A stretch of DNA of 64,000 nt, from the NCBI GenBank assembly GCA_963792965.1, contig CAWBYW010000016.1, positions 115,925 to 179,924 on the forward strand, written 5' to 3'. Both the position numbers and the translations under genes were made by a program. Shown here in pieces: positions 31,484-47,832 of the stretch (positions are counted from its first letter, which is position 1; each line of letters begins with the position of its first letter). This DNA is from an uncultured delta proteobacterium (GTDB lineage Bacteria; Desulfobacterota; Zymogenia; Zymogenales; Zymogenaceae). The notes beneath the pieces are model-generated. The model was given only the letters and a program-made list of their open reading frames with translations, was not told the DNA's origin and did no database searches.

Positions 31484-33072
31484 GTGTACGGAACGGATGA
31501 AGGATACGACGGGTGGGAGGGATATCTTGCCTTATTCATGATTTTCGCGGTCGGCACCGCCCTCAGGGCGGTCATGCTTTTTCACCAGACCGTTATCTCG
31601 CCCGATAGTCCCGGGTATATTTATAATGCCCTCGCAATCGGTAAGGAAGGGCTGAAAAGTCTCTTCGCAGGCGGTTTCGCCGGGAATTTCTCCATCTACC
31701 CCATCTTCATCTACCTTACCAATCTCGTGATCGGCGATCCGGTATTGTCCGGTCAGCTGGTCTCGCTCGTATTCGGTTCGCTCGCTATTTTGCTCGTTTA
31801 TCCCATCACGAAAGAGATAATGGGTGCGCGGGCCGGGCTCATCGTCGCCTTTCTCGTGGCCGTTCATCCGCACCTGATCAGGTATTCGGGGATGGTCCTG
31901 AAAGACTCGACCCTGATCTTCTTCGCCCTCGGGGCTGTGGCCCTGGGTCTGTTTGGGTGCACGAGAAGGAACAGGCTCCTCATCGTCCTTGCCGGGATCT
32001 TGGCATGGACCACGGCGGTCGTGCGTCTGTATGGCATCATCGTCGTCCCCTCGCTCGCTCTCGCCATCGTTGTCTATACCCTTTTTCAGAGGGAAGGGAT
32101 AAAGGAGACGCTCCTTCGTCTGGCCCTCTTTCTCTTTCCCCTGCCCGTCGTGGGGTACATCGCGTTCCTCATCTTTATCGGGCCCCACAATGAATTCTTC
32201 ATCGAGAGTTTCCTGAAGGTCCTCACCATTGTCGTATCCTTTGTTCATCAGACCGGGACCTACCGGGACCTGCTTTTGCGTGGCAATCCCGAAATCAGTC
32301 GTGGTTATCTGGACGTGATAACCCGCTATCCCCGGGTTTCGGCCGCCGTTCATTTCGTTGCTGTTTTTGGAACCGCGTTCTTTTTTTTCTTTTTCGTCCT
32401 TTTTCTGTTGGGCATCTACATTGACAGGAAAAATCTCCTCAACAAGGGCCCGCGCCTCTTCATTCTTTCGTTTGCCTCGGTATACATCTTTTTCGATCTT
32501 GCCATTCTCATGGTCTTCTTCTTCCTCACGAAAAGGCAGCTCATGCCGCTCGTTATCGTTCTTCTCCCCTGGTCGGCGCTCACGTTCGAAAGGGGCATCA
32601 CGTGGCTCACGGACTATTCGCGTGCCCGCGCAGAAGAAGAACGCGGCAGATCCTTCGGGCGACAGTTCCGCTCCTCGCCGTTATCTGGATCGTCGGCGCC
32701 TTCTCTTACACAAGTTCTCCGACCGCGGAAGGTGCGCTGCTCGGGTACAAAAGGGCGGCGGGCGAGTATATCAAGGAGACGGCAGGCGGCCATCCCCTGA
32801 TTCTTCTTCCCCACGCCGATGCCGAAGGACTGGTCGTCTTCTATGCGGGCGCCGAGGGCATATCCTTCGATGACCCGGCCACAATCGAGAAGATGATCGA
32901 TACCGATGACCCCAATATCATCTTGTGGGATACGGTCCTCGGCCCCCTGCCGAAGGAGTTTCCTCTGCTGGTTGAGCACGGCAAAATCGAGCATATCACG
33001 ACGATACCGGGCTCAGGCACCAATGTTATCTATATCTATCGGAATACCCGAAACGAAACCGGCAGGCGGTAG
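31484..33072 (+). CDS. PMT/ArnT-family membrane glycosyltransferase (GT39/GT83-like), frameshift near 32650
   Basis: About 11 TM helices typical of polyprenyl-phosphate-sugar transferases. The C-terminal periplasmic domain continues in ORF 32602-33072 in another frame (...RQ / ILRATVPLLAVIWIVGAF). Confidence 0.65.
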
Positions 33073-33176: not shown

Positions 33177-33800
33177 TCAGTTGGTCGCCGGGACCACGTT
33201 GAAGGCCACGGAGGTGTAGTATTCATTGTCAAAATAGATGTCCCAGCGCCACTGACCCGTGGGGTCACCCGAGGGATTAAACCCCCAGTAGCTGGTAAAG
33301 ATGTCGCTGTCCGGCGTCAGCGTGGTGCTATAGACGGCGCGGTTCTCCGCCGGGTAGGTTTTATAGCTTCCCTCGCTCCCCTCCCAGAGGGTCCAGTTCT
33401 GGGGCGCATAGGGGAAAAACTCCTCTTCACGGTAGGAAACCGGATGTCCGCTGTTGCTTTTGTATTTGAATGAGATGCCGAAATAGGTGCTCGGGATGTA
33501 CGGTATGGTAGTCGCGTCCTCATACACGTAGAGATTTCCCGAGCCGTCGTCCTTCATCTTGCCCATCCTGAATTCAGTGATGACACACGTCGTGAGGGCT
33601 TGCGGGGGCGACATCCCGGGCCCGACCACGCTCGGCACTCCGGGCTGGGACGGCGCGCCATACGGCTGCGGGCCCGCGGGCCCCGCCTGTCCGGGTCCCC
33701 CGGCTCCTATCCCGAGCATCTGTTTGATCCTGTCGCATCCCGTCCCCGCGAAGGCCAGCGCAAGCACAAGGAGGGACAAAATAATCAGGTTCTTTCTCAT
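33177..33800 (-). CDS. lipoprotein with Gly/Pro-rich linker (hypothetical)
   Basis: Lipobox LAFAGTGC and a low-complexity GPG/PQP linker. The terminal gene of the macroglobulin-locus strand block. Confidence 0.45.
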   Translation of the reverse strand: MRKNLIILSLLVLALAFAGTGCDRIKQMLGIGAGGPGQAGPAGPQPYGAPSQPGVPSVVGPGMSPPQALTTCVITEFRMGKMKDDGSGNLYVYEDATTIPYIPSTYFGISFKYKSNSGHPVSYREEEFFPYAPQNWTLWEGSEGSYKTYPAENRAVYSTTLTPDSDIFTSYWGFNPSGDPTGQWRWDIYFDNEYYTSVAFNVVPATN

Positions 33801-33932
33801 ATCGTGCTCCTTTATCTATAGTCTATCATAGGCCGAAAAGTAGATGTTTTTCGTATAGTAATGAAATCGGGGTCCCCTGTCAAGGGGGGAAAGACCCGAC
33901 CCACCGTTTTGACGGACGACACCGGACCCGAT

Positions 33933-34580
33933 TCAGGGCAACCGTTCCCCCCGCGTGGACGCCCGGCCCTGCCCCCCGATAACCTTTACCGCCTCCTCAT
34001 AGGCCAGCACATACCCCCACCGATTTTTCTCCCTGTCCGTCCGCTCCGAAAGGAGCGCGTCGATCTCGCCGGTGTTCCGGGTGACGGGCTTGGGTCCCGA
34101 AAGGCCCTTTTTCAACGCGTCGATCTCGCCGGCATAGTAGACCGCGAGTCCCTCCGAAAACCAGAGCGGCACGTGGGTGCCGAAACGAAGCCGGAGAAGC
34201 GCGAGACACACCTCATGGGCGACGGTCGACTTCAACACCCCGCGCTCTTTCAGGACGTTCACCGGCTGCAGGTAGATCGATCCGTCGATCATCGCCGAGG
34301 CCGACCAGAACGGCAGCCTCGTCTGGGCCGTGAAATCTCCGGTCTCCTTGAAGATCACCACGTCGATGGGACGGCCCGCGCCGCTCCCAACCCTCGTTTC
34401 CATCGCGGTGTATGCCGATTCGAGGGCGTCCTTTACCTCCGAGAGCTCGCCGGCCCGAAGGGTCTCGGCGAAATAGATATTGAAATGCCGTGTCTGGGTC
34501 TGGGCAAAGTCAAGGGCGCCTGCCTCTCGGCTGATGACGAGAAGAAGGCACGAGATCAGAAATAGGAACGGTCTTCTCAA
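33933..34580 (-). CDS. secreted hypothetical protein
   Basis: Signal peptide MRRPFLFLISCLLLVISREAGA. No confident family. 4-bp overlap with the PBP gene. Confidence 0.45.
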   Translation of the reverse strand: MRRPFLFLISCLLLVISREAGALDFAQTQTRHFNIYFAETLRAGELSEVKDALESAYTAMETRVGSGAGRPIDVVIFKETGDFTAQTRLPFWSASAMIDGSIYLQPVNVLKERGVLKSTVAHEVCLALLRLRFGTHVPLWFSEGLAVYYAGEIDALKKGLSGPKPVTRNTGEIDALLSERTDREKNRWGYVLAYEEAVKVIGGQGRASTRGERLP

Positions 34581-35605
34581 TCCGTATGCACGCCTCCGAA
34601 ATAGACGCGGAAAACCTCCCGGGCCACCGGCGCGGCATCCTCACCCCCCCGGCCGTGGTAGAGGAAGACGACCACGGCGATCTCGGGGTTCTCGGCGGGG
34701 GCAAAACCCAAGAACCAGGCGTGAGTCGCCCAGCTGGAGCCGAGGAACTCGCCGGTGCCGGTTTTGCCCATAATCTCGTGCCCGTCCGGCGTCCCCTTGA
34801 CGGCGGTTCCGTACGCCGCCGCATCGCGCATTCCCTCGGCGAGGATCGGCGCCGCGCGGGAAACCTCTACCTTCCTGTTGAGTCTCGGCGAAAATGAACC
34901 GATATCGTCTGCGGTGGGGGTCACGCGGGGAACCCAGATACTGCCCCCGTTCACGAGGGCCGAAAGATTCACGATCACCTGAAGGGGCGTCGCCGTGACG
35001 TTGTCGGTGTCTCCGATGACATACTCACGGGCAAACGCCGGCTCGGGGGGGATGAGCCTTCCCGCCTCCTCCTGTGGAAGGTTGACCCCGGTCTTTTCTC
35101 CAAACCCGAGCTCGGAAAGCCCCCGGTAGGTGGTGTCGGCGCCCAGCGTCTCGGCAAGGGAAAGGAAATAGAGATTACACGAGTAGGCGATCCCGCGGAC
35201 AAGGTTGAGATCACCGTGTCCGGGGGGGTACCAGCAATCGTATTTCGTTCCCGATATAACGGCACTCCCGGTACACCTGAAGCGAGCGTCGGGAGAGATA
35301 CGCTTCTCTTCGATCCCTTTCCAGACGCTCACAAGCTTGACGAGCGAGCCGGGGGGAAAGGCCCAGCGTGTCGCCATGTCGGGCCCCACCATCGCTCTGA
35401 TGCGTCCCGTCTTCACGTCCATGACGACGACCGCCCCGGTCCGGCCCGCCAGGGCGTCGGATGCCGCGCTTTCGAGGAGGGCGTCGCCTTTCAACACCTG
35501 TTCCGGGCCCGGCCTGCAACCCGAGGCGAAGAGAAATAAAAGGGCGACCCCCCCGATGAGGGGTCGCCGAAAGAGTAAACGAATCCGCCGCCGGATCCCC
35601 GTCAT
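34577..35605 (-). CDS. penicillin-binding protein, transpeptidase domain only (lipoprotein)
   Basis: SxxK (SLVK), SxN (SCN) and KTG (KTGT) motifs. Lipobox LFASGC. ATGA overlap with the upstream macroglobulin gene. Confidence 0.75.
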   Translation of the reverse strand: MTGIRRRIRLLFRRPLIGGVALLFLFASGCRPGPEQVLKGDALLESAASDALAGRTGAVVVMDVKTGRIRAMVGPDMATRWAFPPGSLVKLVSVWKGIEEKRISPDARFRCTGSAVISGTKYDCWYPPGHGDLNLVRGIAYSCNLYFLSLAETLGADTTYRGLSELGFGEKTGVNLPQEEAGRLIPPEPAFAREYVIGDTDNVTATPLQVIVNLSALVNGGSIWVPRVTPTADDIGSFSPRLNRKVEVSRAAPILAEGMRDAAAYGTAVKGTPDGHEIMGKTGTGEFLGSSWATHAWFLGFAPAENPEIAVVVFLYHGRGGEDAAPVAREVFRVYFGGVHTD

Positions 35606-38600
35606 TTCCCCTCGGTGATGACAAGGCTTGAGCTTCCCGTCCTTCCGAAGCGGTCCGGGAAGTACATCAGGTACGCCTCGGCCGGCATGACACCGTAGGT
35701 CCCCGGGTTTTGGGCGCGGAGGATATACTTGAAGACATAGGTCCCCACGTCGACGTAGTCCATCGATAGAGCGATCCGCTCATCCCGGAATTCCCTTCCG
35801 GCAAACCACCAGTCCGCATCGCCGGTATAGAGATCGTCCCCGGAGATGACATAGTTTTTATCGTCGCTGATGGCCTCATAGCCCGCCGGGTAGTAGTCCT
35901 CCAGCAGGAAGTATTGGGCCTTCTTGTCGGTCGTGACCGAAAGCTCCACGAGGATCTCGTCCCCGCTACTGACCGGGCCGCTGAGCGGCACCTTCGCGTA
36001 GATGAGCTCTCCCTTCTTGGGCACCTTCTTGAGGAGGTAGTACTTTCTGCTCACGGCAAATCCGGCGTTCAGCGGGGCTATCGAGGGGGCCGCGCTGTAG
36101 TGCGTGAAGGTCGAGGAATAGTAGAGGCTACCCGGCCCGTCCTTCTTGATGACGATCGTATTGGGGCCGGTCTTGAGATCCCCTTCCTTGACGGTAATCG
36201 TTCCCCCCTCGGTGAGCATCGTCTCCTTGGTGATGTGGCTCTTCTTGAGCTGTTTGCCGTTGAGGGTAAGCGTCATGGTGTAGTTCGGCTTGATCTCCCC
36301 GGTCCGGGTGATGTAGTCCGTCAGGGCATAGATGATCTTCCCCGTGGCCTTGGTGGAGCGCCAGTAGCTTCCGGTCCGGTTGATGATAAGCCAGCGGATC
36401 GTCTTGGGGATGAGGGGATTATTGACGTCGCGCATGGCCATCACCCGCAAAACGTACGCGGTGGTCTCCAGGGGATCGGCCTCCCAGTCCCACCAATAGA
36501 AGTCCTCTCCGACGTAACCCCAGTGAACATAGCCGTTCTCCTGGATCTTTTCCTTCATGAGCAGGTCATACAGGACGTTGGCCTTCTCCCGGATCCCCTC
36601 GTTCTCGTAGGCCAACAGCAGCATCGCCTGAGAAATGGGGGTGAGCTTGTCGCGCTTCTCGAACATCTCGTCGAGCCACGCGGTCTTGAGCTTGTCCGTG
36701 TAGGACAAGACGTAGAGGGCGTAGACCTTGACGGAGTCCTGATCGATCTTGCTCAGCTGAGAGATGAGGGACGCGGTGCCGCGCTTGATGACGCCCTCGT
36801 CCACGGTGATGGGAATGCCTGCCTCGGGAAGGAGGCGTTTCGCTTCGAGGAGCCCGTACAACACGTAGGCGGTCATGTAGGGATCGGTCTCGTCGAACTC
36901 GTACCACCCCCAGCCGTTATCGTCGTGCTGCCGTTTGTAGAGCACCATGAGCCCGCTCTTGATGTAGGCGGGGAGGTCCTTCTCTACGCTCTTATCGGAA
37001 AGGTCAAGCTTCTTTAATACCGACGCGACCATGACTGATGGCAAGAACCTTGCCATTACCTGCTCGTTTCACCCATAGGGGTAGCCGACGAGGAATGGTA
37101 TAGCGGCAAGCATTGTGTTGACGAGCGATGGACTGGTGGTAATGGTGAGCTCAGCAGCGTTCTTTATCGTGTTGGCGGGCTTGTTGACCGTCACCGTGAG
37201 CGTCCCGGAGTCCTTGATGATCTCTCCCATATCGTTCTTTGTCTCTTTGATGCCGAGCGGGAGGATCGGCACCTTTATCTCCATTCCGTCGGAGACCTCG
37301 TTGGTCATCGCCTTTGCCGTGAGAACGGCACTTCCCACGAGGTCCGCCCTGACGTGCCAGTCGACGCGCTTCTCTCCGTTTTTCGGGACGATTGCATCGA
37401 CCGGAACGCCGGAAGCGAGCGTCAATCCCTTTGCGTCGAACGTGAAGTGCACCTTCTTGTCGGTCGACAGGTAATTATGGGCGATGGTGGAGATTACGAG
37501 GTCGTCCCCCTGGCGCAGAAATCGCGGCGCCTCTATGCGGACGAGTAAGTCCTTGCGCTCGATGACCCGGTAGGTAGTCTCCCCCATGCTGTCGCCCGTG
37601 GTCACCCCCCGGACCGTCGCACGCCAACGCGTCAGGTTGTCCGGGAAGGTGACGGTGACCGTGGCCATACCCTTTGCGTTGGTCGTGATCGTGGGCGACC
37701 AGTACATCGTGTCCTTGAAGTCCTTTCGGATCAGCGGTTGAACGAGCGTGTCTCCCTTGAAGTCGGCAAGCTTCGTCTCTTTTTCCGGAAGTCCCGCCAG
37801 GAGTCCTTTCCGGTGAGAGTATCCGTAAAAGCGGAAGTAGAGGGATGACGACGTGTCCACGGAATGATAGCGCAGCGAGTAGAAATACTTCTGGATTTCG
37901 TCGACAAGCTCCGGTGAGATGGCGTAGATGGCGTCGTCCACGACGCCGAGCGACACCTCTGCCGACACGGGTTTGCCTGTGCTGTCCGTCGTCTTTATCG
38001 TAAAGGTGCCCTTTTCTTGCGGCTCGTACGTCGCCTTATTGGAGGTCACCTCGACGTTGATGAACTTTTCGGTCGGTGGGATGATGATGTTCTTGCTGTC
38101 CGAATAGAGCTCATCGTTGAAGATCGCGGCAACCGAGAGGTAGATGTTGGGGGTGTATCTCTCCTTTATGGGGAGATCCAGCATCGCCGTGCCACCCGTG
38201 GCTTTGATGACTCGGCTATCAAGGATCGAGTCTCCCTCGGTGGTAATCAACAGATAGGTATCCTTCACCGGCGCGGCGATCAGGATGTGGGCGGTATCGC
38301 CCACCGCGTAGGTATCCTTGTCGGGGATAATCGTGACGCCGCCCTCCGACGTCCCGCCGTAGGCATACCCCTCCGTAAAGGAATACGATGAGTCCTTGGC
38401 CGTGGTGGAGTTGCCCGCGTTATCGAAGACCGTGGCGATGAAATTGACGTCGCCCACGTTTTTCACCGTATATTCGATGACGGCGTCCCCACCGGAGTTC
38501 GTCCTTCCCGAAAGGGTGGCCGAGCTCGTGACCTTGCCCCCCTGCCAGTCGGTCTCCGTGACGATGAGCGTCACCGGCACATTCGCCACACCCTTGTTGT

Positions 38601-40242
38601 CAAAGTCGGAGACGTTGACCGTGATCCGCGCCTTATCCCCCGGCGCGTAGACCCAGCGGTCGGGACGTAGCGAAACGGTGTAGTTTGACCGAACGACCTT
38701 GACGACGCTGCTGGTGGTAACCACCCGGCGCGAGAGATCGGTAACGTTGGCCTCGATGGTGAAGGTATAGTCGTTGTCGGGCGACTCAAGGTATTGCGAC
38801 GTGTCTACCGTGAGCCTGAGCTTCCCGGCGTTGTCGAGCATAGCCGTGCCACTGTCCACCATGACCTTCTCGGTGGCGGTCCAGTAGTCTTCGTCCATGA
38901 AGTACCAGCCCCAGTCGTACCCCCACCACCAGGGGCGCTCGTAGACCGACCGGTAGACCGTATAGTCCACCTTGGCCTCCGTTACGGGGCTGCCGAAGTA
39001 GTAGCCCGCCTCGATATCGGCCGTGATCGTGTCGCCCCGGATGTAGACGTTCTTATCCGTCCTGATCTTGACCTCGTATTCGGGCTTCTTGTACTCCTCC
39101 ACCTTGAAGCTGTTGTAGTAGTTCTGTCCATTCAGTCCCACGACGATCTGATATTCGCCGAGCGAGGGCTCCTCTCCGAGGGTGAAGTCCCCCGAGAGGC
39201 TCCCGTACTTATTAATCTTATAGTTGTTCCGGAAGACCTCGTCGCCCTTGGCGTCGTCGATGATGACCAGGTAGTCGTCGCCGGTGTCGGGAACCTTCAG
39301 CCCCGAGTCGGTGGCGTTTCTCAGGATCGAGCGAAAATGCACCGTGTCGCCGGGACGGTAGACGGGTCGGTCGGTGTAGGTGTAGACCTTGTCGCTTGCT
39401 TCCCCTTCCCCGTAGGCATAGGGGTCGGCCAGGGTGAAGTTCTCGCCGTCCTGGGCGAAGACATAGATGACGTCACTCTCGGTCGCTTTCACCTTGGAGT
39501 AGTAGATCCCGTCGGAGTCCGTCTTCCCCTTGAAGAGGAGTTTTTTCTGGTTGTCGTAGACCGATACCTTAACGCCTTTCATCGGTTTGCCGGTTACCCG
39601 GTCGGCCACGTAGATAAGGCTGTCGGTGCTCGAGTTCTTCACGACAAACGACATGGGGGTAACGACGACCATCGTATAGGCCACCGAATCCTCAAAGACC
39701 GCCTCGACGAGGTAGCACCCCGGTTTCGGGACTTTGACGTCTATGTTGTGGTACTCCCACTGTCCACTGCCCGAGATGACCAACTTCTCCTGCCAGCGGT
39801 TGAGGAGCTTGAACTGGGTCAGGATCGGGAAGAGCTCGTAGGTCTGTGGCGCGGGTGAGACGGGCTCCTGGGCGTGCGGCAGGCCGAGTGCCGAGACGAC
39901 ATCGTCTCGGATGTTGTCGGAGAGTTTTGAGCGATAGTCGTCCCGGAAGAGTTCTACCCCCTTCCGTTTGATCGCCCCAACCATCTCGGCGGGGGCCGAT
40001 GTCCCCCGTTTCGTCGTCACCACCGGCGAGTGGACGTCATCGAGCCCGAGGAAGTACGATTTCGGATCGTCTACCCGGTAGAGCCGGATATCGAGGGACG
40101 GGACATCCATGGAGGAAACGGTGACGGTGACGGGCTCCCCCGGAGCGAAGATCTTGTCCGTGGAGAGCTCAAAGGAGCCTGCGAGCGTCACGGCCGGCAG
40201 TGTTAAGAGCAATACGATCGAAAGAATAAGGGACTTTTTCAT
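35602..40242 (-). CDS. alpha-2-macroglobulin family thioester-type protein (1547 codons) with an in-frame TGA at the thioester cysteine codon (37069-37071)
   Basis: ORFs 37069-40254 and 35602-37056 are in the same frame, separated only by TGA. The context GYPYG-[TGA]-NEQVMARFLPSVMVASVL aligns with PYG-C-GEQNMVLFAPNIYVL of macroglobulins. Downstream motif DDNGWGWYEF...TAYVLYGLLEA matches the thioester domain. Signal peptide present. Start ATG at 40242 is preceded by GAGGGA. Confidence 0.8.
37038..37056 (-). promoter_or_regulatory. stem-loop 12 nt downstream of the in-frame UGA (candidate bacterial SECIS)
   Basis: mRNA reads UGA AAC GAG CAG GUA then AUGGCAAG-GUU-CUUGCCAU, a perfect 8-bp stem with a GUU apical loop. 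The loop begins 20 nt after the UGA. Confidence 0.35.
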
Positions 40243-40485
40243 AGTTTCCCTCAAAGAATGGAGTATATCGTTGTTTGGTCTGTCACCGTGAGAGTGCGCG
40301 GCGACCGCGGCAATCCCCGGCTGTCGTTACCGATACGGAGGTAATAAGGATCCTTCCTCGAGAATCAGGGCTCGCCTCGTTGTGCCACATCGCCTGGCCT
40401 CCCACGATTCGGGCAGGAACGTTCCCCTGCAATGACCGAGAAGAGCTCCCACGATACTTTGGACCTCAAAAGCACCTATAAAGCT

Positions 40486-41583
40486 TTAGTTCAGTATCTT
40501 GAACCGATAATAACCCAAAAAATGGTCGTTCTCTCTTACCGGCCGCCAGCGCTCGTCCGGATGCACTTTGAGCGTGGCGAGCCTGACCTTCCTCACGTCC
40601 CCGTTATCGTGGGAGCGCGGGCCGGTGTGATAGACGAGCCAATCTTCGTTTACGTCCGAATCGCTCTCCTTTCCCCACTCGCCGAGGTAGATCATCATAT
40701 GGGAGGGCATCCGGGGGTTTTCCGGGTTGAAGAAAAAGAGGAGATCACCGGGAAGAATACCCTTCTCGGTTCGCCCGAGGAACACGACGTTGTACTGAAG
40801 CAGCGCCTCGGCCGATGCCGCCGCAGAAAAGTTGACGCCGATATCGGAAGGGACAAACGGCCCCGGCGCCGTCCGAAAGACATCGACTCCCAGCAGCGGC
40901 ACGTGGGGATAGGTGTACTTCTTCACGTCGGGATTTGCGGGGCTGACCAGCGTCGCGTAGGAGGAAAAGAAAGCGTCGTCGTGGCGCTTGAGCGCCTCGA
41001 CATAGGCAAAACGCACAAGCCCCGCACAGTCCCGGTTGATCTGGTCCCAGTGGCGGTTCTTCTCGTAGACTTGAGATTCCGCGATGGCGCAGAGCCACCG
41101 CCGGAAGTTGAGGCGGTCTGTGTCGCCGAAGAGCTCCACCACATCGGGAAACCCGTCCCCGTCCCGGTCACGCATGTCGGGGATAACATTCACCTGTGCC
41201 CGGGCAGGCGCCACCCCCGGAGACTCGGCCCGGATCGTGAGGTCACCCGTCTCGAAGGTCGAGATGAGCGTGAGGGAGGCCGTTCCGCGGACAAACGCGA
41301 GCGGTCCTGTTTCCACCCTTGTCGTCGCCGGGCCGACAAGCGTCACCGTAAGGGGTGCGCCGCAGCCGCGCGCAACATTCCCCCTGTCGGTCTTTGCAAG
41401 GATCGTGATCTCCACGGTATCTTCCTTGTTGGCCCAGAGCGTCTGCTTTGACACGGCGATCTCGATGCTTTTGGCCTTTGCGCACGACGTGATCAAACAG
41501 GCCAACAGGAGCGTCGAAAGGATCGCCGCTCCGCCTTTAATCCAGGTCCTTGACCCTGATCTTAAACCCGCCTTGAATTGCAT
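40486..41583 (-). CDS. DUF1175 (YfaT)-like lipoprotein with papain/NlpC-P60-like Cys-His core
   Basis: Lipoprotein signal (LLLACLITSC). DCAGLVRFAY resembles the NlpC/P60 catalytic Cys context and HMMIYLGEWG the His context. Immediately upstream of the macroglobulin gene, as yfaT is in yfaS loci. Confidence 0.5.
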   Translation of the reverse strand: MQFKAGLRSGSRTWIKGGAAILSTLLLACLITSCAKAKSIEIAVSKQTLWANKEDTVEITILAKTDRGNVARGCGAPLTVTLVGPATTRVETGPLAFVRGTASLTLISTFETGDLTIRAESPGVAPARAQVNVIPDMRDRDGDGFPDVVELFGDTDRLNFRRWLCAIAESQVYEKNRHWDQINRDCAGLVRFAYVEALKRHDDAFFSSYATLVSPANPDVKKYTYPHVPLLGVDVFRTAPGPFVPSDIGVNFSAAASAEALLQYNVVFLGRTEKGILPGDLLFFFNPENPRMPSHMMIYLGEWGKESDSDVNEDWLVYHTGPRSHDNGDVRKVRLATLKVHPDERWRPVRENDHFLGYYRFKILN

Positions 41584-43280
41584 CACCGCTGAAGTTGACC
41601 CCCCCGTAGCATGAGACAAAAGATCTTCTGGTCAGTTCCACGAGCGGCACGAGCCGCTTTTCCGAATCCTGGTAGAGAAAGTATTTATAGTTTGCCGAGA
41701 TGTTGACGAGATAACCCTCGATCAACGACATGGCGTTGTTCCCGTCTACGTAGAGATAGAGGTCGTAGGCGTCTTTCGGCATGTCTTTTTGCGCCGAGAT
41801 GAACGCGGGCGACTTCACGAGAAAATCGCGGTCAAAAAGGCCGCCCGCCCCCGTCATCGAGGAAATAACAGAGAGGTCGTTGAGCTGCTCCATCGTCGAA
41901 AGGTCCCAGAAGAGGAAGAGCCTGTCATCCTTGAGCGCAAAACCAGGATTAGGCTTGACGGAGGCGACGTACGACGTCCCGTTCCAATCGAGGCTCTTTT
42001 CCCTGAACTGGCCCATATAGGAGATGTGAGCGGCGTCAAGCTCGAGGGGAGACGGGCCCGCATCTGAAGAATGAATAGCTGTAGAGCTTGCCGATATTGG
42101 TGGAAAGGGCCTCTTCTTTGCCCGGTGCCACCCCAACGGAGGCGATCGTCCTGAGGTACGGTTTTTCTCCCTCATACCCGATCCCGACGAGGGCCGCCAG
42201 CGCCCCCCTGCCGAGGTTGTTGATGATTCCACCCTCCAGGTCGAATCCGCCCTTGTCCTTCCATTTTTTCAGGATCGAGATGTAGTTTACCTTTTGGGCG
42301 ATGTCGGTAAACCAGACCTTCCCGAAATGGGTATAAAGGATGCCGGGGTCGAAGGCCCGAAACGCCACGAGCGCCGCCGTCTCGCCGGGCATCGCCGATA
42401 GGTCTATTGTCGCCTTATCGGAGAGCGACCCCAGCCCCGCCAGGAGGCTTTTCCCCTCGCCCCCGGTGTAGGGGGCAAAGAGCGTGATATCCGCGCCGGC
42501 CTCGGAAAAGGTGACCGAGAAAAGGAGCGCGTCCGTCCCCTTGAGAAGCCGTCTGGCATGGGCGACGATGCCCATCTCGGAGTCATCGGGGCTCATCGCC
42601 TTCGTTGAATAGAAAAGGATATGGTAGTCCTTTGGCAGGTGGGAGAGCCGATCCATGACGGCGGGGTTTCCGGAGAGGTTCTTTGGGTTTTGCCCCGTAA
42701 CGATGTCCCACTCGGATTTGAAGAGATCGGGGGAGTCGGAGACGATCGTATAGCCTTTGACGTTCTTGTAATAGATCTTCTTGTCTGTGCTCGCGACAAC
42801 CCAGACGGAATAGGAGCCCCAGTTTTCCTTCGTCACGTGGCTCGAAAAGATCGAAAAGAGGTTGATGAGAAAACCCTTAAACCAGCCCGTCTCAAGCAGC
42901 GCCGCCGAGGCCTCCTTTCCCTCGAGGGTCGTCCGATAGAAGACGGCCCGCGCACCTATGACCCACAGGAAGCGTTTCAGGGTCGGGCGAATCCCGGTCA
43001 TCTTCTCGATAGTCCCGAGCCTGGAGAGCATCGGGGCCGAGAGGTCGCTCTTGATCGGGCCCTCAAAGAGCGAAAGATCGCCGACTTCATCAAAATAATC
43101 GCTTGAGAGCAACGGCCTCAATCCTGCCCTGAGGTCCCTGAGGTAGACGAAGGAGTCTACGTTCTCCGGGATGATCTGATAGAGCTCGTAGGCGTCTCCG
43201 GCCACGGCACTAAGGGCCCCAAGCGAAAGGGCCGCGATAACGACCGCGCCGATCAGACATGCCCTGATCTTAGATCTCAT
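41537..43280 (-). CDS. large secreted protein, DUF2138 (YfaA)-like, one frameshift near 42045
   Basis: ORF 42036-43322 has a signal peptide and about 410 aa of real sequence. It continues in ORF 41537-42232 in another frame. Removing one C from a C4 run restores ...KLYSYSFFRCGPVSLELDAAHISYMGQF. Family call rests on size and locus context only. Confidence 0.4.
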
Positions 43281-43299
43281 GAATCCCTCCTTTTCTCCG

Positions 43300-43890
43300 C
43301 TATCGGCCGATGGGGCCCGCAAATGACTCGGGATCGGCCCCCGCCCGGAGGATCGTATTGTAGTACCTCAGCGTGACGATGTGAATCACCCGCTCGCGCA
43401 TAGTATCGGGGGTCGCCTTCATGAGAGCGGGGAGGTCCTTGTAGAAATCCTTCAGCGACTCGTTCACGTCGCTCTTCATCTCGGGCGTCGGCGCGCCGGC
43501 ACGACCGAGGCCCGGAGGTTCTTGTATTCGTCCCACTCGGCGTCAAGGATGACGTCCAGCGCGTCTCCCACGGCACCTGTGTCCGTCCCGCCGGGCTGGC
43601 TGTAGTCCGTACCCGACGGCGTCTCGGAGACCGTGGGAGGCACAAGCATCCTGGTCCCGGGCGGCGGCGATCATCTCCCACTCGTGGCGAGGGACGTCCG
43701 GATCTCGCTTTTGCGGCTTGGGATAGCCCGCCTTGATCTGATCGATCGCAAGGGTAACGTCGGCAAAGACCCCCCCGACCTTCGGACCCTTCTCTCCGGG
43801 CGCGGGCGCCTTTTTTTCGCAGGCCCACGAGAAGATCAAGAGAAACGAGAGGAGCCCAAGAATCGGCCAGAGCAGTCCCGGTCGGGCGCT
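43300..43890 (-). pseudogene. small lipoprotein-like hypothetical gene with two frameshifts and no canonical start
   Basis: Signal-like RKRRDGLSARPGLLWPILGLLSFLLIFSWAC. The frame begins directly after the upstream TGA. The body switches frames near 43620 and 43510 (...ARDQD / LVPPTVSETPSGTDYS...DEYKNLRASVVPA / TPEMKSDVNESLKDFYK...). Confidence 0.3.
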
Positions 43891-43911
43891 CAGTCCGTCC
43901 CGCCGTTTCCG

Positions 43912-44779
43912 TCAGGATCGGCCGAGCGCCGAGAGGATCTCGGCCAGCGCCCGATCCGAGCGATACGTATTGGTCTTGATGTTCCATCCCTTCTCCTTCA
44001 AACCGATTAAGAGCTGGGTAACCTCGGGCAGAAACGGCCTCACGCCGTCGAGCGCCGCCCGGTCGGAAAAGAGTTCTTCCGGGGTGCTGTCTAGTTTGAT
44101 CTTCCCCTTCTCGATAACGACGATCCGGTCGGCCACCCGGATGATTTCTTCCATGTCATGGGAGATGATGATGACGGTCTTGTTCTTGGCGTTGAGGGCC
44201 TTGATGTGCCGGATGGTCTCGGTCCTCGACTGGGGATCAAGTCCCTGGGTGGGCTCGTCGAATATGAGTATGGGAGGATCCATAGCGAGGATCGAGGCGA
44301 TGGCGACCTTGCGCTGCTCACCGCCGGAAAGGGTGAACGGCGAGCGCGTCCTGAGCCGGTCGATGTCAAGGTTGACGAGGCCTGCCGCATCACGACACTC
44401 GCCTTTCGACCTCCTCTTTCGAAAAACCCCCTCGGTTGACGAGGGAAAACGCGATCTCTTTCTCGACCGTCTCCTCAAAGAGCTGGTGCTCGGGATACTG
44501 AAAGACGAGCCCTACCATTTCCCGCAGCCTGCCGGTCTTCTTGGTGGCGGGCGTCAGGTCAAAATCACCGACGCGGACGCTCCCCTTCGCGGGCGTCAGC
44601 AGTCCGTTGAGGTGCAGCGCCAGCGTCGTCTTCCCCGAGCCGGTGCGCCCGATCAGCGCGACGAACTGGCCCTCCTCGATCGAGAGGTTCACCCCCGAGA
44701 GCGCCTCCTTTTCCAGCGGCGTATTGGGGAAAAAGACATGCGAGAGGTCTTTTATCTCGATGAGCGGTGCGGTCGTCAT
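43912..44779 (-). CDS. ABC ATPase of the EcfA/CbiO type, one frameshift near 44420
   Basis: N-terminal half (44390-44779) has Walker A GRTGSGKTTL. C-terminal half (43912-44478) has LSGGEQRKVAIASILAMDPPILIFDEPTQGLD. The two halves are in different frames. No EcfT partner gene is adjacent. Confidence 0.65.
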
Positions 44780-45033
44780 GAGACTTTGTAGACCATGTCG
44801 CCCGGCCGAACCCTGTCTTTGATCTTGATCCCCACGAGTGCGCCTGACGCGACCTCGGTTACCGGGGCGTTGTCGATCTGCATCGACTCCACCACTTCCG
44901 TGAAATCGGTCGTCGCACCCTTGAAGCGGAGCTCGTCCCCAACCTTGAGGGAGCCCTCGACCTTTATGGCGGCAACCGACGGCTTGGCAAAGAACTTGAT
45001 GACCTCTCCGATTTTTACCTCACTTGACATCAC
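44776..45033 (-). CDS. small (85 aa) EF-Tu/SelB domain II-like beta-barrel protein
   Basis: IGEVIKFF...VAAIKVEGSLKVGDELRFKG...ASGALVGIKIKDRVRPGDMVYKV resembles domain II of translational GTPases. ATGA overlap with the ATPase gene. Immediately downstream of selA, where selB normally sits. Confidence 0.5.
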   Translation of the reverse strand: MMSSEVKIGEVIKFFAKPSVAAIKVEGSLKVGDELRFKGATTDFTEVVESMQIDNAPVTEVASGALVGIKIKDRVRPGDMVYKVS

Positions 45034-45072
45034 ACTCCTCCTCCCGTGGTAGTCAGCATGATCTATCCTTAT

Positions 45073-46500
45073 TCATTCCCTTCTCATGGCCGACAGGATT
45101 CCGTTTGCGAGGTCCGTGACCTCCCTCTCCAGGACGGTTCGAGGATCGATGACGAGGCTCTCGTCCGAGATTCGTGCGATAATGGTCGGATGCTTGCGTC
45201 CTCAAGCGTCTCTCGAGCGCCTCGGGGCTCTCGGCCAGCGGAGCAATCGTTACCACCCTTGTCGGGATCTGTGCGGTGGGAAATGCCCCGCCGCCCACTC
45301 CCGAGAAGTCATCGGCGGTCGTGACGTGGAACTTCGGATGGGGCGTGGCCGCCAGCAGCTTCACGATCCTTTTGGCCCTTTTCTTCGTCTCGTCATAGGA
45401 CATCGTAATCATCGCCAGGACCGGGATCTTTTTTCGCGCATCAAACGGGTCCCGATAAATCATCAGGGTCGATTCGACGGCGGCAAGCGACAGCTTATCG
45501 ATCCTCACGGCCCGCGCCAGTGGGTTCTTTTTAATGCGGTCCGATCGGGTCCGCCTCCCCTACGATGAACCCCGCCTGGGCACCGCCCAACAGCTTATCG
45601 CCCGAAAAACGTAATGACATCGACGCCCGATTTAATCACTTCCGAGACGGTCGGCTCATGGGGGAGGCCCCAGGGCCCGAGATCCATGAGCGAGCCGCTG
45701 CCGAGGTCCTCCATGACCGGGATGTCATATTTTTTCCCGAGCCCGACGAGCTCGGCGGTCGACACTTCCTCGGTGAACCCGACGATCCGGTAATTGGAGG
45801 TGTGGACCTTGAGGAGGAGCGCGTCTGGCCGACCCGATGGCGCTCTCGTAGTCCGAAAGCCCTCGTCCGGTTCGTCGTGCCGACCTCTCTGAGGCGCGCG
45901 CCGCTCTTTTCCATGACATCCGGGATACTAAAAGCGCCGCCGATCTCCACCAGCTCTCCCCGTGAGACGATGACGTCCCTGCCGTCGGCAAGAGTATTGA
46001 GCGCAAGCAACACGGCCGCGGCGTTGTTGTTGACCGCAAGGCCCGCCTCCGCGGAGGTGATATGGGCGATCAGGTCGGAAACGTGGTCGTGGCGGGATCC
46101 CCGCTCTCCGCGCTCGACGTTGAATTCGAGATTGGAATAGCCCGAGGCGATGCGTACGATATGCTCGAGGGCCTCCGCGGCGAGGGGCGCGCGGCCGAGG
46201 TTTGTATGCAAGATAATCCCCGTGGCGTTGATGACGGGCGCAAGCTGACGGCGTGACCGATTTGATCAGCCACTGCTCGATGAGCGACAAGAGCTCCGGC
46301 TCCGAGACTTCGGCGGGATGCTCTTTGGACATGAGCTCTTTTCGCGCGGACAAAATGGCGCCTCTCACCGCCTCCTTTACCACCATCCTCGGAAAGCGCC
46401 TCGATAGTTCCGTGACCATGGGGTGAGCCAGCAGCTTATCCACCGCGGGGAGTTTGGCGAGAGGGGATTTTTGTGCCGGGTTTTCCGACTTTCTTGGCAT
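45073..46500 (-). pseudogene. selA: L-seryl-tRNA(Sec) selenium transferase (selenocysteine synthase) SelA, with at least 6 frameshifts as assembled
   Basis: Pieces match SelA along its whole length across frames. N-terminal [34 protein letters not shown]...[11 protein letters not shown]...[11 protein letters not shown]...[35 protein letters not shown]. Then [20 protein letters not shown]...ITF / [16 protein letters not shown] / RIDKLSLAAVESTLMIY. C-terminal PTIIARISDESLVIDPRTVLE...SAMRRE*. Breaks are near 46245, 45880, 45845, 45625, 45575 and 45185. Confidence 0.8.
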
Positions 46501-46787
46501 GGCGCCGCTCGAGATTTTTTCCATCTATACCATACTTTGACGGATTTCTCAAGGAAAATAAGGCTCTATGGGCGACGAACCTGACCCTCCCGCGCGGTTC
46601 TCAGTTCGGAAATGGAGATTTTGACCCTCAGGCGAGCGAAGGGCTCGGGGGGCCGAGCCCCGCCAAGACAAACGATTCCGCCGCTCATTATCTGACGGTA
46701 AAGGTAACTGAAGTCAGCTCCGCTCCACCCGAATCGGAGCCGTTCATGCGCAGGTCGTAGCTTCCGGGGGTCGTCGGGCCACAAGGC

Positions 46788-47792: not shown

Positions 47793-47832
47793 CGCCCCAC
47801 CGATACTCTATTACTGTGCATTCCGTCACACT

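What the first reader, a model, noticed from the sequence alone, without database searches (positions are those of the whole stretch)
33177..43322. Composite alpha-2-macroglobulin locus mixing class-1 and class-2 partners
On one strand the locus reads DUF2138-like (YfaA-like), then DUF1175-like (YfaT-like, with a papain/NlpC-P60-type DCAGLV...HMMIYLGE Cys-His core), then the thioester-type macroglobulin, then a transpeptidase-only PBP (SxxK, SxN, KTG), then two small secreted proteins. All are linked by 4-bp overlaps.

In Budd et al. 2004 thioester macroglobulins pair with the bifunctional PbpC, and yfaS-type macroglobulins lacking the thioester pair with yfaA, yfaT, yfaQ and yfaP. Here a thioester-motif macroglobulin carries both kinds of partner. 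Its PBP lacks the glycosyltransferase domain.

The block has a lower GC content than its flanks and contains no frameshifts. That is consistent with a horizontally acquired periplasmic defence or repair module.
Basis: partly seen in the sequence, partly recalled or inferred. Interest (0 to 1): 0.55.

Follow-up and report, generated by a model that had tools for sequence, protein, structure and literature searches.

The report
Selenocysteine-coded bacterial alpha-2-macroglobulin operon
A bacterial protease-trap gene (alpha-2-macroglobulin) has its reactive thioester cysteine encoded by a UGA codon followed by a selenocysteine-insertion hairpin, so it most likely carries selenium at its covalent "warhead", a use of selenocysteine absent from the 2026 selenoprotein catalogue I checked.

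Summary
The gene row is real (minus strand, 43322 to 33177) and is conserved in Candidatus Zymogenaceae relatives.

The macroglobulin is not a clean ORF with CxEQ. Its thioester cysteine codon is an in-frame TGA (37069-37071), reading GYPYG-[TGA]-NEQ. Twelve nt downstream lies an 8-bp hairpin with a GUU loop that meets all four constraints of the published bacterial SECIS model.

- The same TGA occurs in 40 loci (23 distinct sequences) from at least four phyla.
- In the window's clade the 33 nt after it are invariant while neighbouring synonymous sites vary.
- Five of its nine degenerate codons are rare in this gene.
- Two nested Cys forms (TGC, TGT) have lost the hairpin.
- selA lies five genes upstream.

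Best reading: a selenocysteine-containing alpha-2-macroglobulin, presumably with a selenoester warhead. It is absent from a 2026 catalogue of 119 prokaryotic selenoprotein families.

Confirmed: DUF1175/MagC, a transpeptidase-only PBP and two small secreted proteins. Not confirmed: DUF2138, the lower GC (0.5904 versus 0.5906), "no frameshifts" (the first gene is frameshifted), and "all 4-bp overlaps" (2 of 5 junctions).

The parts
35602..40242 (-). Alpha-2-macroglobulin gene read through one in-frame TGA. It encodes 1546 aa from the ATG at 40242 to the TGA stop at 35602-35604. The N-terminus is a Sec-pathway signal peptide, MKKSLILSIVLLLTLPAVTLAGS, with no lipobox cysteine.
   Evidence: Both ORFs are in the same frame. 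Pfam finds bMG3, MG2, bMG5, A2M_BRD and A2M before the TGA, and TED_complement and bMG10 after it. The full-length Cys homologues P0002 and P0146 align end to end. The gene has no frameshift relative to L001.
37069..37071 (-). In-frame TGA at the position of the thioester cysteine (GYPYG-U-NEQ). This is the proposed selenocysteine codon, residue 1058 of the precursor.
   Evidence: Homologues carry GYPYGC[NV]EQ at this position. The same TGA is present in 40 loci, 23 of them distinct sequences. About 1000-1100 open codons precede it and about 470-510 follow it.
37038..37056 (-). SECIS-like hairpin AUGGCAAG-GUU-CUUGCCAU: an 8-bp stem and a GUU loop, with 20 nt between the UGA and the loop. The whole block 37037-37071 is invariant in the clade.
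   Evidence: - Sequence and fold.
- It meets all four published bSECIS constraints at -9.1 kcal/mol, and only 3 of 300 synonymous recodings do as well.
- Within the block, 9 of 9 degenerate codons are nucleotide-invariant across 13 distinct sequences, against 2 of 20 outside it.
- Five of the block's nine degenerate codons are rare in this gene; the joint probability of the nine choices is about 1e-6.
- The hairpin is lost in the Cys forms L008 and L044.
40486..41583 (-). MagC/DUF1175 lipoprotein. It has an Ig-like N-terminal domain and an NlpC/P60-like Cys-His domain. A lipobox (LITSC) is present. The likely start is the ATG at 41583; the ORF extends to a TTG at 41619.
   Evidence: Pfam DUF1175 E=5.4e-61, with weak NLPC_P60, Big_1 and Invasin_D3 hits. 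The start context is shown. The gene is conserved upstream of the A2M in relatives.
41540..43322 (-). Secreted protein of about 590 aa, at the position that yfaA/magF holds in Type II loci. In this assembly it is frameshifted near 42054-42064. It belongs to a narrow family distantly related to DUF3352, not demonstrably to DUF2138.
   Evidence: The frames are shown. It is a single ORF of 577-604 aa in relatives. No Pfam hit was found. Only 13 representatives exist among 1.84 billion proteins, and four of the nine relatives scanned (P0140, P0141, P0143, P0145) hit DUF3352, one of them below Pfam's cut-off. hhalign against YfaA is not significant.
34577..35605 (-). Transpeptidase-only penicillin-binding protein of 342 aa, with a lipobox-like N-terminus (FASGC) and SLVK, SCN and KTG motifs. 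It overlaps the A2M stop codon by 4 bp.
   Evidence: Pfam Transpeptidase E=3e-46 is the only domain found. The best NCBIfam match is the C-terminal transpeptidase part of PBP2/MrdA. It is conserved at 338-357 aa in relatives.
33933..34580 (-). Secreted 215-aa protein with conserved HExxL...EGLAxY motifs, a degenerate MA-clan metallopeptidase-like pattern. It overlaps the transpeptidase gene by 4 bp.
   Evidence: Weak Peptidase_MA_2 and flagellinolysin hits. Alignment of six orthologues shows the invariant residues.
33177..33800 (-). Putative 207-aa lipoprotein. Its orthologues carry a precomputed Pfam PF27186 (PM0630) label. It is the last gene of the conserved row.
   Evidence: Orthologues are labelled PM0630. 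tblastn identity to the L001 orthologue is 59%. The local Pfam copy gives no hit.
45076..46500 (-). selA (selenocysteine synthase), five genes upstream of the macroglobulin gene. In this assembly it is broken into at least three frames.
   Evidence: tblastn of L001 SelA maps to the window in three frames. SelA is intact (474-487 aa) at the syntenic position in L001, L005, L007, L008 and L044.

Best explanation
The locus encodes a periplasmic alpha-2-macroglobulin whose thioester-forming cysteine is replaced by selenocysteine.

How the codon is read: during translation, the UGA at 37069-37071 is read as Sec. The hairpin that begins 12 nt downstream (37038-37056) acts as a bacterial SECIS, recruiting SelB bound to Sec-tRNA(Sec).

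What the protein then does: the full-length protein of about 170 kDa is exported through its Sec-pathway signal peptide. On folding, the selenol is expected to attack the Gln of the U-N-E-Q motif, giving an internal selenoester in place of the usual thioester. Cleavage of the bait region by an invading protease would expose this bond, which then acylates a nucleophile on the protease and traps it covalently. A selenoester is a better acyl donor than a thioester, so trapping should be faster.

The partners: the gene is co-transcribed with a MagC/DUF1175 NlpC/P60-like lipoprotein, a transpeptidase-only PBP lipoprotein and three proteins of unknown function. Together these are best read as an envelope defence and peptidoglycan-repair module.

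Basis of each step:
- Shown by sequence comparison: the TGA at the Cys position, the SECIS-like hairpin under RNA-level selection, Cys/Sec homologue pairs, selA in the genome, and the domain content.
- Inferred only: actual Sec insertion, selenoester formation, protease trapping, and the roles of the partners.
For: 1. The TGA lies in frame exactly at the Cys of GYPYG-C-xEQ.
2. All eleven closest database homologues other than the window's own product (58-80% identity) are called as truncated proteins ending in ...GYPYG.
3. Pattern scans found the TGA form in 10 species genomes and 22 metagenome contigs. With the loci already held, that makes 40 loci and 23 distinct sequences. The labels include Thermodesulfobacteriota/Zymogenaceae, Armatimonadota and Planctomycetota. 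Long open frames lie on both sides of the TGA.
4. The hairpin meets all four constraints of the published bSECIS model: a 3-nt loop starting with G, an 8-bp stem, 20-nt spacing and -9.1 kcal/mol.
5. In 13 distinct clade sequences, the 11 codons from the UGA onward are nucleotide-invariant. Only 2 of 20 comparable codons outside that block are invariant.
6. The block includes five codons that are each only 6-10% of their family in this gene, with a joint probability for the nine degenerate codon choices of about 1e-6.
7. Two Cys forms are nested inside the Sec clade: P0002 is 86% identical to Sec form L007, and P0146 is 79% identical to the window. They carry TGC or TGT and have lost the hairpin through 6-9 substitutions, including Ala to Ser.
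8. All six Cys-form controls fail the model.
9. Other clades have their own hairpins at the same place. Changes within the Armatimonadota clade keep the pairs, for example G-C to A-U.
10. selA is syntenic and intact in relatives.
11. TGA is also the ordinary stop codon of four genes in the row, so it is not reassigned genome-wide.
12. Selenoesters are faster acyl doners than thioesters: 14-fold in PMC11600164. The selenol pKa is 5.2 against 8.3 for the thiol (PMC13188914).
Against: - There is no experimental evidence. Every sequence comes from a MAG or a metagenome.
- selB, selC and selD were not seen. No tRNA-Sec lies in any held locus, and nothing of the kind turned up in the 20 window ORFs outside the finding that were scanned.
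- selA in the window itself is frameshifted, although many neighbouring genes are too.
- Whole-segment folding energies are only weakly better than synonymous recodings, p about 0.03-0.2.
- Fixed-register covariation across clades is weak (65% of cells paired, 7 of 500 shuffles), and RNAalifold finds no consensus.
- Two clades (C and E) have only 4-bp perfect hairpins at about -3 kcal/mol.
- It is not known whether a selenol can form and hold a stable ester with a Gln side chain inside a TED domain.
Confidence: 0.85

Rival explanations
1. The TGA is a genuine stop codon. The clade makes a split macroglobulin: an N-terminal protein of 1057 aa, plus a C-terminal TED/MG10 protein of 484 aa restarted at the AUG 12 nt downstream. 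It has no reactive cysteine and behaves like a non-covalent Type II trap.
For: Gene callers in every source database annotate it this way. An AUG follows 12 nt after the TGA. Type II macroglobulins can trap proteases without a thioester (PMC5764988).
Against: - The stop falls exactly on the Cys codon in at least seven sequence types from several phyla.
- The four codons N/V/I-E-Q-x between the stop and the AUG remain in frame and conserved as the thioester motif.
- That AUG is the conserved Met of xEQxM, which is also present in Cys forms.
- The AUG is buried in the stem of the hairpin.
- No Shine-Dalgarno sequence is conserved across clades.
- The C-terminal part would lack a signal peptide for export.
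Confidence: 0.06
2. Selenocysteine is inserted but does not form a stable selenoester. It stays a free selenol, or forms a selenenyl-sulfide, and serves a redox, metal-binding or other role. Alternatively, when selenium is scarce the UGA is read as Cys or Trp.
For: Most known selenoproteins are redox proteins (PMC13188914). Forming a selenoester from a Gln amide should be thermodynamically less favourable than forming a thioester (my inference from general chemistry).
Against: The complete G-U-x-E-Q motif, including the acyl-donor Gln, is retained in every Sec form. Sec and Cys forms interchange within 79-86% identical orthologues in the same operon. That argues for the same function at this position.
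Confidence: 0.2
3. The TGA is a sequencing or assembly error, or a recent inactivating mutation (a pseudogene), in an error-prone long-read MAG.
For: The window has many frameshifts in neighbouring genes: selA, the ECF ATPase, the 587-aa gene, AAA_33 and PMT_2. Microflora Danica MAG loci show the same fragmentation.
Against: The identical TGA is present in 23 distinct sequences from independent short-read assemblies (JGI, ENA, Logan, NCBI) at 28-87% pairwise protein identity among those compared. The 4.6-kb gene has no frameshift at all. The downstream 33 nt are under purifying selection at synonymous sites.
Confidence: 0.01
4. One reading: an ordinary thioester (Cys) macroglobulin in a recently horizontally acquired composite module that mixes Type I and Type II partners.
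For: MagC/DUF1175 and a PBP flank a macroglobulin that has a TED domain. More distant Cys-type relatives lack these partners, so the combination is specific to this lineage.
Against: There is no Cys codon at the motif. GC does not deviate. Synteny with flanking housekeeping genes is conserved across the clade. DUF2138 is not detected. The PBP is of class B type, not PBP1c.
Confidence: 0.05

Closest known systems
Type I bacterial alpha-2-macroglobulins (E. coli YfhM/ECAM, Salmonella Sa-A2M; PDB 4ZIQ, 5A42, 4RTD, 4U48)
   Same: Multi-MG-domain periplasmic protein with a bait region, a TED domain carrying an xEQ reactive motif, and MG10. It is encoded next to a penicillin-binding protein (PMC5764988).
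   Different: - The reactive Cys is encoded by UGA and followed by a SECIS-like hairpin.
- There is no lipobox cysteine, whereas YfhM is a lipoprotein.
- The partner PBP has only a transpeptidase domain and is of class B type, not bifunctional PBP1c.
- Extra partners are present (MagC, the 587-aa protein, the 215-aa protein, PM0630).
- Sequence similarity to YfhM is low (E=3e-14 over about 280 residues), lower than to eukaryotic A2M (5e-36).
Type II macroglobulin operons (P. aeruginosa magABCDEF; E. coli yfaA-yfaT-yfaS-yfaQ-yfaP)
   Same: A DUF1175/MagC gene lies directly upstream of the macroglobulin gene. It is preceded by a gene for a secreted protein of about 560-600 aa, in the same order as yfaA-yfaT-yfaS.
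   Different: The macroglobulin here keeps a TED reactive motif. No DUF2135 (YfaP/MagA) or DUF2300 (YfaQ/MagB) gene is present. The upstream protein is not detectably DUF2138.
Bacterial selenoprotein genes with Cys homologues (for example FdhA, SelD, and the predicted families listed in PMC13188914 Table 1)
   Same: An in-frame UGA aligned with Cys in homologues. A stem-loop immediately downstream that fits the bSECIS model. A patchy Sec/Cys distribution with recent switches. The hosts are anaerobes of deltaproteobacterial type that have selA.
   Different: The Sec replaces an acyl-forming (thioester) cysteine in a non-catalytic, single-use protein warhead, not a redox-active or metal-ligand residue. 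The family is not among the 119 catalogued. The nearest chemical precedent in that table is the predicted glutamine-amidotransferase-like selenoprotein. There a Sec nucleophile would form only a transient gamma-glutamyl selenoester (my inference).
Eukaryotic thioester proteins (A2M, C3/C4, insect TEP1, CD109)
   Same: The same fold family and the same G-C-x-E-Q chemistry. These are the best PDB sequence matches.
   Different: They are always Cys-encoded in the entries seen. They are eukaryotic, secreted and glycosylated, and they do not sit in an operon.

Membership tests
Bacterial selenoprotein gene | In-frame UGA aligned with Cys (or Sec) in homologues | tested here: met
   The window reads GYPYG-TGA-NEQ where homologues read GYPYG-C-[NV]EQ. 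The TGA is conserved in 23 distinct sequences.
Bacterial selenoprotein gene | A bSECIS stem-loop downstream of the UGA, as defined in PMC13188914 Fig. 2: loop of 3-9 nt, stem of 4-16 bp, G in the first two loop positions, 16-37 nt spacing, MFE <= -7.5 kcal/mol | tested here: met
   The window hairpin has a GUU loop, an 8-bp stem, 20-nt spacing and -9.1 kcal/mol. Five of seven sequence types pass, two are weak, and six Cys-form controls fail. Synonymous-site invariance and rare-codon use support RNA-level selection.
Bacterial selenoprotein gene | Sec machinery (selA, selB, selC, selD) in the same genome | tested here: inconclusive
   selA is present: intact in five syntenic relatives and frameshifted in the window assembly. 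selB, selC and selD were not found in the DNA held. Whole genomes could not be searched.
Bacterial selenoprotein gene | Selenium shown in the protein (75Se labelling or mass spectrometry) | not testable with these tools
   This needs an experiment.
Type I bacterial A2M (thioester type, PMC5764988) | CXEQ thioester motif in a TED domain | tested here: not met
   The TED domain and xEQ are present, but the Cys codon is TGA. The feature is met only if the UGA is read as Sec, which gives UxEQ.
Type I bacterial A2M (thioester type, PMC5764988) | Adjacent gene for bifunctional PBP1c (glycosyltransferase plus transpeptidase) | tested here: not met
   The adjacent PBP has a Transpeptidase domain only. 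Its best NCBIfam match is the transpeptidase part of PBP2/MrdA.
Type II bacterial A2M / Mag operon (PMC5764988) | Macroglobulin without the reactive thioester motif | tested here: not met
   G-U-N-E-Q and a TED_complement domain are retained.
Type II bacterial A2M / Mag operon (PMC5764988) | Operon partners MagC (DUF1175), MagF/YfaA (DUF2138), MagA/YfaP (DUF2135) and MagB/YfaQ (DUF2300) | tested here: not met
   Only DUF1175/MagC is present. There are no DUF2138, DUF2135 or DUF2300 hits on any gene of the row or on intact relatives. The E. coli reference order is shown.
DUF1175 / MagC (PF06672) | Pfam model match above the gathering score | tested here: met
   206.4 bits against a cut-off of 27, E=5.4e-61, covering 222 of 226 model positions.
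DUF2138 / YfaA (PF09909) | Pfam model match or profile similarity to E. coli YfaA | tested here: not met
   No hit at E<=10 for three intact orthologues. hhalign against YfaA gives probabilities of 0.14% and 3.6%. E. coli YfaA itself scores 968 bits. Four of the nine relatives scanned hit DUF3352 instead, one of them below Pfam's cut-off. The structure model was too poor (pLDDT 38.8) for a fold test.
PBP1c (pbpC) | N-terminal GT51 glycosyltransferase domain and the PBP1c C-terminal domain | tested here: not met
   The 342-aa protein has a single Transpeptidase domain spanning residues 57-332. It is the same length (338-357 aa) in all relatives, so it is not a truncation.

The most novel reading that the evidence does not exclude
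A natural protein with a stable internal selenoester. Selenocysteine replaces the thioester cysteine of a bacterial alpha-2-macroglobulin, giving a Sec-Gln selenoester as a faster-reacting covalent warhead against proteases. It has been gained or lost repeatedly across at least four bacterial phyla. This would be a non-redox, stoichiometric (single-use) role for selenocysteine and a new selenoprotein family.
Probability: 0.5. Interest if true: 0.82.

Novelty: new variant of a known kind. Interest (0 to 1): 0.72.

Why it matters
Nearly all known selenoproteins use Sec as a redox or metal-ligand residue in a catalytic site. Why Sec is kept instead of Cys is still an open question (PMC13188914, section 8).

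Here Sec would sit in an acyl-transfer warhead that fires once. The only plausible advantages are leaving-group quality and acylation speed. The natural Sec/Cys orthologue pairs, 79-86% identical in the same operon, therefore offer a clean test of what selenium buys outside redox chemistry.

For the macroglobulin and complement field, it would be the first variant of the reactive bond itself. For genome annotation, this macroglobulin gene is currently split into two "hypothetical proteins" in the NCBI, JGI and Logan gene calls I examined.

The operon also adds a third partner arrangement for bacterial macroglobulins (MagC plus a transpeptidase-only lipoprotein PBP), beside the Type I and Type II schemes.

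Tried and rejected
- Whole-segment MFE of the 36 nt after the UGA, compared with synonymous recodings, was only weakly significant (p about 0.03-0.2) and not significant in clades C, E and G. I replaced it with a test specific to the bSECIS model.
- Cross-clade covariation in a fixed register was weak: 65% of cells paired, 7 of 500 shuffles as high. RNAalifold found no consensus. The hairpins sit in slightly different registers in different clades, so I make no claim of a single homologous SECIS.
- Rfam gave nothing, either at gathering scores over the window or at E<=10 around the site.
- ARAGORN found no tRNA-Sec in the window or in 28 loci.
- An exact look-up of the window's own protein P0001 found no record.
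- The AlphaFold2 model of the 587-aa family had mean pLDDT 38.8. I ran no fold search on it.
- Pfam on 20 further window ORFs found no selB or selD.
- A scan for other in-frame TGA read-through candidates in the window found nothing comparable.
- GC-based evidence for horizontal transfer was rejected.
- Four literature searches that paired selenocysteine or selenoprotein terms with macroglobulin found nothing relevant. The selenoester search returned only synthetic ligation chemistry.

Full report
**What is at the coordinates**

On the minus strand, from 43322 down to 33177, lies a row of co-directional genes:
- a gene for a secreted protein of about 590 aa, here split into 428-aa and 231-aa frames;
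- a 377-aa DUF1175/MagC protein;
- a macroglobulin;
- a 342-aa penicillin-binding protein;
- two small secreted proteins of 215 and 207 aa.

Pfam confirms DUF1175/MagC (E=5e-61, plus a weak NlpC/P60 hit). On the macroglobulin it finds the bacterial set bMG3, MG2, bMG5, A2M_BRD, A2M, TED_complement and bMG10. On the PBP it finds a single Transpeptidase domain, and the SLVK, SCN and KTG motifs are visible.

- The first gene gives no DUF2138 hit at E<=0.01 for the window fragments or at E<=10 for three intact orthologues.
- Profile comparison with E. coli YfaA is not significant, with probabilities of 0.14% and 3.6%. YfaA itself scores 968 bits on DUF2138.
- The family is tiny: 13 representatives among 1.84 billion proteins. 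Four of the nine relatives scanned (P0140, P0141, P0143, P0145) hit DUF3352, one of them below Pfam's cut-off.
- Only the gene's position supports a YfaA-like role. It lies upstream of DUF1175 and the macroglobulin, as in yfaA-yfaT-yfaS.
- The gene is frameshifted by a 1-nt insertion near 42054-42064 relative to relatives, which have one ORF of 577-604 aa.
- Neighbouring genes are also frameshifted: selA, an ECF ATPase, AAA_33 and PMT_2. Loci from long-read Microflora Danica MAGs show the same fragmentation. An assembly artefact is therefore more likely than gene decay. This is inference.
- Only two of the five junctions are 4-bp overlaps.
- GC of the block equals that of the window, 0.5904 against 0.5906.

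**The key feature**

The macroglobulin is two ORFs in the same frame, 37069-40254 and 35602-37056. They are separated by one TGA, and read-through gives ...FLVGYPYG-[TGA]-NEQVMARFLPS.... Full-length homologues read GYPYG-C-[NV]-E-Q at this position. The stop codon therefore sits exactly on the thioester cysteine.

Twelve nt after the TGA begins the hairpin AUGGCAAG-GUU-CUUGCCAU (37038-37056). The published consensus for bacterial SECIS elements has four constraints (PMC13188914), and the window element meets all of them:

| Constraint | Required | Window element |
|---|---|---|
| Apical loop | 3-9 nt | 3 nt (GUU) |
| Stem | 4-16 bp | 8 bp |
| G in the first two loop positions | yes | yes |
| Spacing from UGA to loop | 16-37 nt | 20 nt |
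| MFE | <= -7.5 kcal/mol | -9.1 kcal/mol |

Only 3 of 300 synonymous recodings of the same peptide give an equally good element.

**Comparative evidence**

- The eleven closest database homologues other than the window's own product (58-80% identity) are all annotated as proteins of 1057-1063 aa ending in ...GYPYG.
- Their DNA shows the same TGA and an identical 35-nt block, TGAAACGAGCAGGTAATGGCAAGGTTCTTGCCATC. Synonymous sites vary on both sides of it.
- Across 13 distinct sequences of this clade, all 11 codons from the UGA onward are invariant at the nucleotide level, including 9 of 9 degenerate codons. Outside the block, 2 of 20 amino-acid-invariant degenerate codons are invariant.
- Only 64 of the 6912 synonymous encodings of MARFLPS form the 8-bp stem.
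- The block uses GTA, GCA, AGG, TTG and CCA. Each makes up 6-10% of its codon family in this gene (GC3 = 0.82). The joint probability of the nine degenerate codon choices is about 1e-6.

**Natural controls**

Two Cys forms are nested within the Sec clade:
- P0002 (MBN1882752.1) is 86% identical to Sec form L007.
- P0146 (MBN2224360.1) is 79% identical to the window.

Both are labelled Candidatus Zymogenaceae and both sit in the same operon. They carry TGC or TGT. Within the 33 nt that are invariant in Sec forms, they have accumulated 6-9 substitutions that destroy the hairpin, including Ala to Ser. All six Cys-form genes held fail the bSECIS model, with best hairpins between +2.9 and -5.2 kcal/mol for five of them; the sixth, L044, has lost the hairpin by substitution.

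**Breadth**

I scanned the genome and metagenome collections for GYPYG-TGA-xEQxM. The scans found 10 species-level genomes and 22 metagenome contigs. Together with the loci already held, that is 40 loci and 23 distinct sequences of at least seven types. The labels are:
- Thermodesulfobacteriota, "delta proteobacterium" and Ca. Zymogenus;
- Armatimonadota and Ca. Thermosaccharophagus;
- Planctomycetota;
- an unclassified bacterium.

Nearly all of them have about 1000-1100 open codons before the TGA and about 470-510 after it. No other in-frame TGA occurs in these genes, and TGA is the normal stop codon of four genes in the window's row. The codon is therefore not reassigned.

Each clade has its own hairpin at the same location. 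Examples are GGGACG-GUU-CGUCCC and GGGGCA-GUU-UGUCCC in Armatimonadota, where the closing pair changes from G-C to A-U. Another is AUGGGCA-AGUUUC-UGCCCAU in L034. Five of the seven types pass the model and two are weak.

A rough NJ tree and an identity matrix place the Sec forms in at least four separate lineages among Cys forms. This is the usual pattern for selenoprotein families.

selA lies five genes upstream of the macroglobulin gene. It is intact in L001, L005, L007, L008 and L044.

**Limits**

- A fixed-register covariation test across clades is weak, and RNAalifold finds no consensus. I claim analogous hairpins, not one homologous hairpin.
- Whole-segment folding energy is only marginally better than that of recodings.
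- selB, selC and selD were not seen in the DNA available.
- All of the data are metagenomic.

**Interpretation**

The best explanation (confidence 0.85) is that the UGA is decoded as selenocysteine and that the product is a full-length macroglobulin. The protein is exported by a Sec-pathway signal peptide. It has no lipobox, unlike YfhM, whose PDB entries name it a lipoprotein.

The whole G-U-x-E-Q motif is kept, and Sec and Cys interchange between close orthologues. The Sec residue therefore most likely does what the Cys does: it forms an internal ester with the Gln. Here that ester would be a selenoester.

Two chemical facts predict faster acylation of an attacking protease once the bait is cleaved:
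- the selenol pKa is 5.2, against 8.3 for the thiol (PMC13188914);
- selenoesters transfer acyl groups faster than thioesters, 14-fold in PMC11600164.

This step is inference (about 0.6 given Sec insertion).

**The partners**

The partners are:
- a MagC lipoprotein with an Ig-like domain and an NlpC/P60-like domain;
- a lipobox-bearing transpeptidase of class B type;
- a protein with HExxL...EGLAxY motifs;
- a PM0630-type lipoprotein.

They are conserved as a block in the clade. They fit the published idea of a periplasmic module that traps proteases and repairs peptidoglycan (PMC5764988). One lineage (L003) lacks MagC and the 587-aa gene. More distant Cys-type relatives are tandem macroglobulin pairs with none of these partners.

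**Novelty**

A 2026 review tabulates 119 prokaryotic selenoprotein families. It contains no macroglobulin, MG2 or thioester entry. Full-text searches that combined selenocysteine or selenoprotein terms with macroglobulin found nothing relevant, and the selenoester search returned only synthetic ligation chemistry. The NCBI, JGI and Logan gene calls I examined annotate the gene as two proteins.

I rate it a new variant of a known kind: a known protein family and a known recoding mechanism, but a new reactive chemistry and a non-redox role for Sec. The library searched is incomplete, so an earlier mention elsewhere cannot be excluded.

Noticed in passing
window 43900-49400 (minus strand) and 31500-33050 (plus strand): Many genes around the locus are broken by frameshifts relative to an 80%-identical relative: selA (3 frames), ECF ATPase (2), AAA_33 kinase-like (3), PMT_2 (2), and possibly the 198-aa gene. 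The 4.6-kb macroglobulin gene has none. Microflora Danica long-read MAG loci (L013, L016, L017) show the same fragmentation, which suggests indel errors in the assembly rather than gene decay.
   Followed up: partly
window 44785-45030 (minus strand); L001:5395-5649, L005:5196-5456: A conserved 84-86-aa protein lies directly downstream of selA in every relative. It has weak similarity to EF-Tu domain 2 (Pfam E=7e-4; precomputed EF-G_D2/GTP_EFTU_D2 labels in L005). It is followed by an ECF-type ABC ATPase and a protein of about 190 aa with no family assignment. A stand-alone translation-factor-like domain next to selA is odd and may relate to Sec decoding.
   Followed up: no
window 33933-34580 (minus strand): The 215-aa secreted protein keeps invariant HE, EGLAxY and WGYVLAYE motifs, but the second His of HExxH is Leu in all six orthologues. 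It may be an inactive or unusual MA-clan metallopeptidase-like protein. It is always encoded right after the transpeptidase gene.
   Followed up: partly
window 41540-43322; P0121-P0145: The secreted protein of about 590 aa upstream of MagC belongs to a very narrow family: 13 representatives at 50% identity among 1.84 billion proteins. Its most distant members reach Pfam DUF3352. AlphaFold2 with a shallow alignment gave an unusable model (pLDDT 38.8).
   Followed up: yes
L042:8001-17854 and L043:3279-12884: More distant Cys-type macroglobulins (about 34% identity) occur as tandem pairs. They lie beside an M28 peptidase with PDZ domains, an AhpC/Redoxin gene and a cupin gene, and have no PBP or MagC partner. 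This is a different conserved neighbourhood.
   Followed up: no
L014 (Planctomycetota MAG, CAYPNR010000009.1): The Sec-form macroglobulin here has about 1927 open codons upstream of the TGA, nearly twice the usual number. Its best model-compliant hairpin is further downstream (33 nt, -12.1 kcal/mol).
   Followed up: no
window 34577-35605, 40486-41583 and 33177-33800: The transpeptidase (FASGC), MagC (LITSC) and the PM0630-like protein (AGTGC) all have lipobox-like N-termini, while the macroglobulin itself does not. In E. coli the situation is reversed, because there the macroglobulin is the lipoprotein.
   Followed up: no
L003/L004/L009/L021/L029 (Thermodesulfobacteriota MAG GCA_964542895.1 and JGI contigs): One lineage has the Sec-macroglobulin, transpeptidase, 215-aa and PM0630 genes but lacks MagC, the 587-aa gene and selA upstream. 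PadR and a flavodoxin-like reductase lie there instead. The core of the module is therefore the last four genes.
   Followed up: partly
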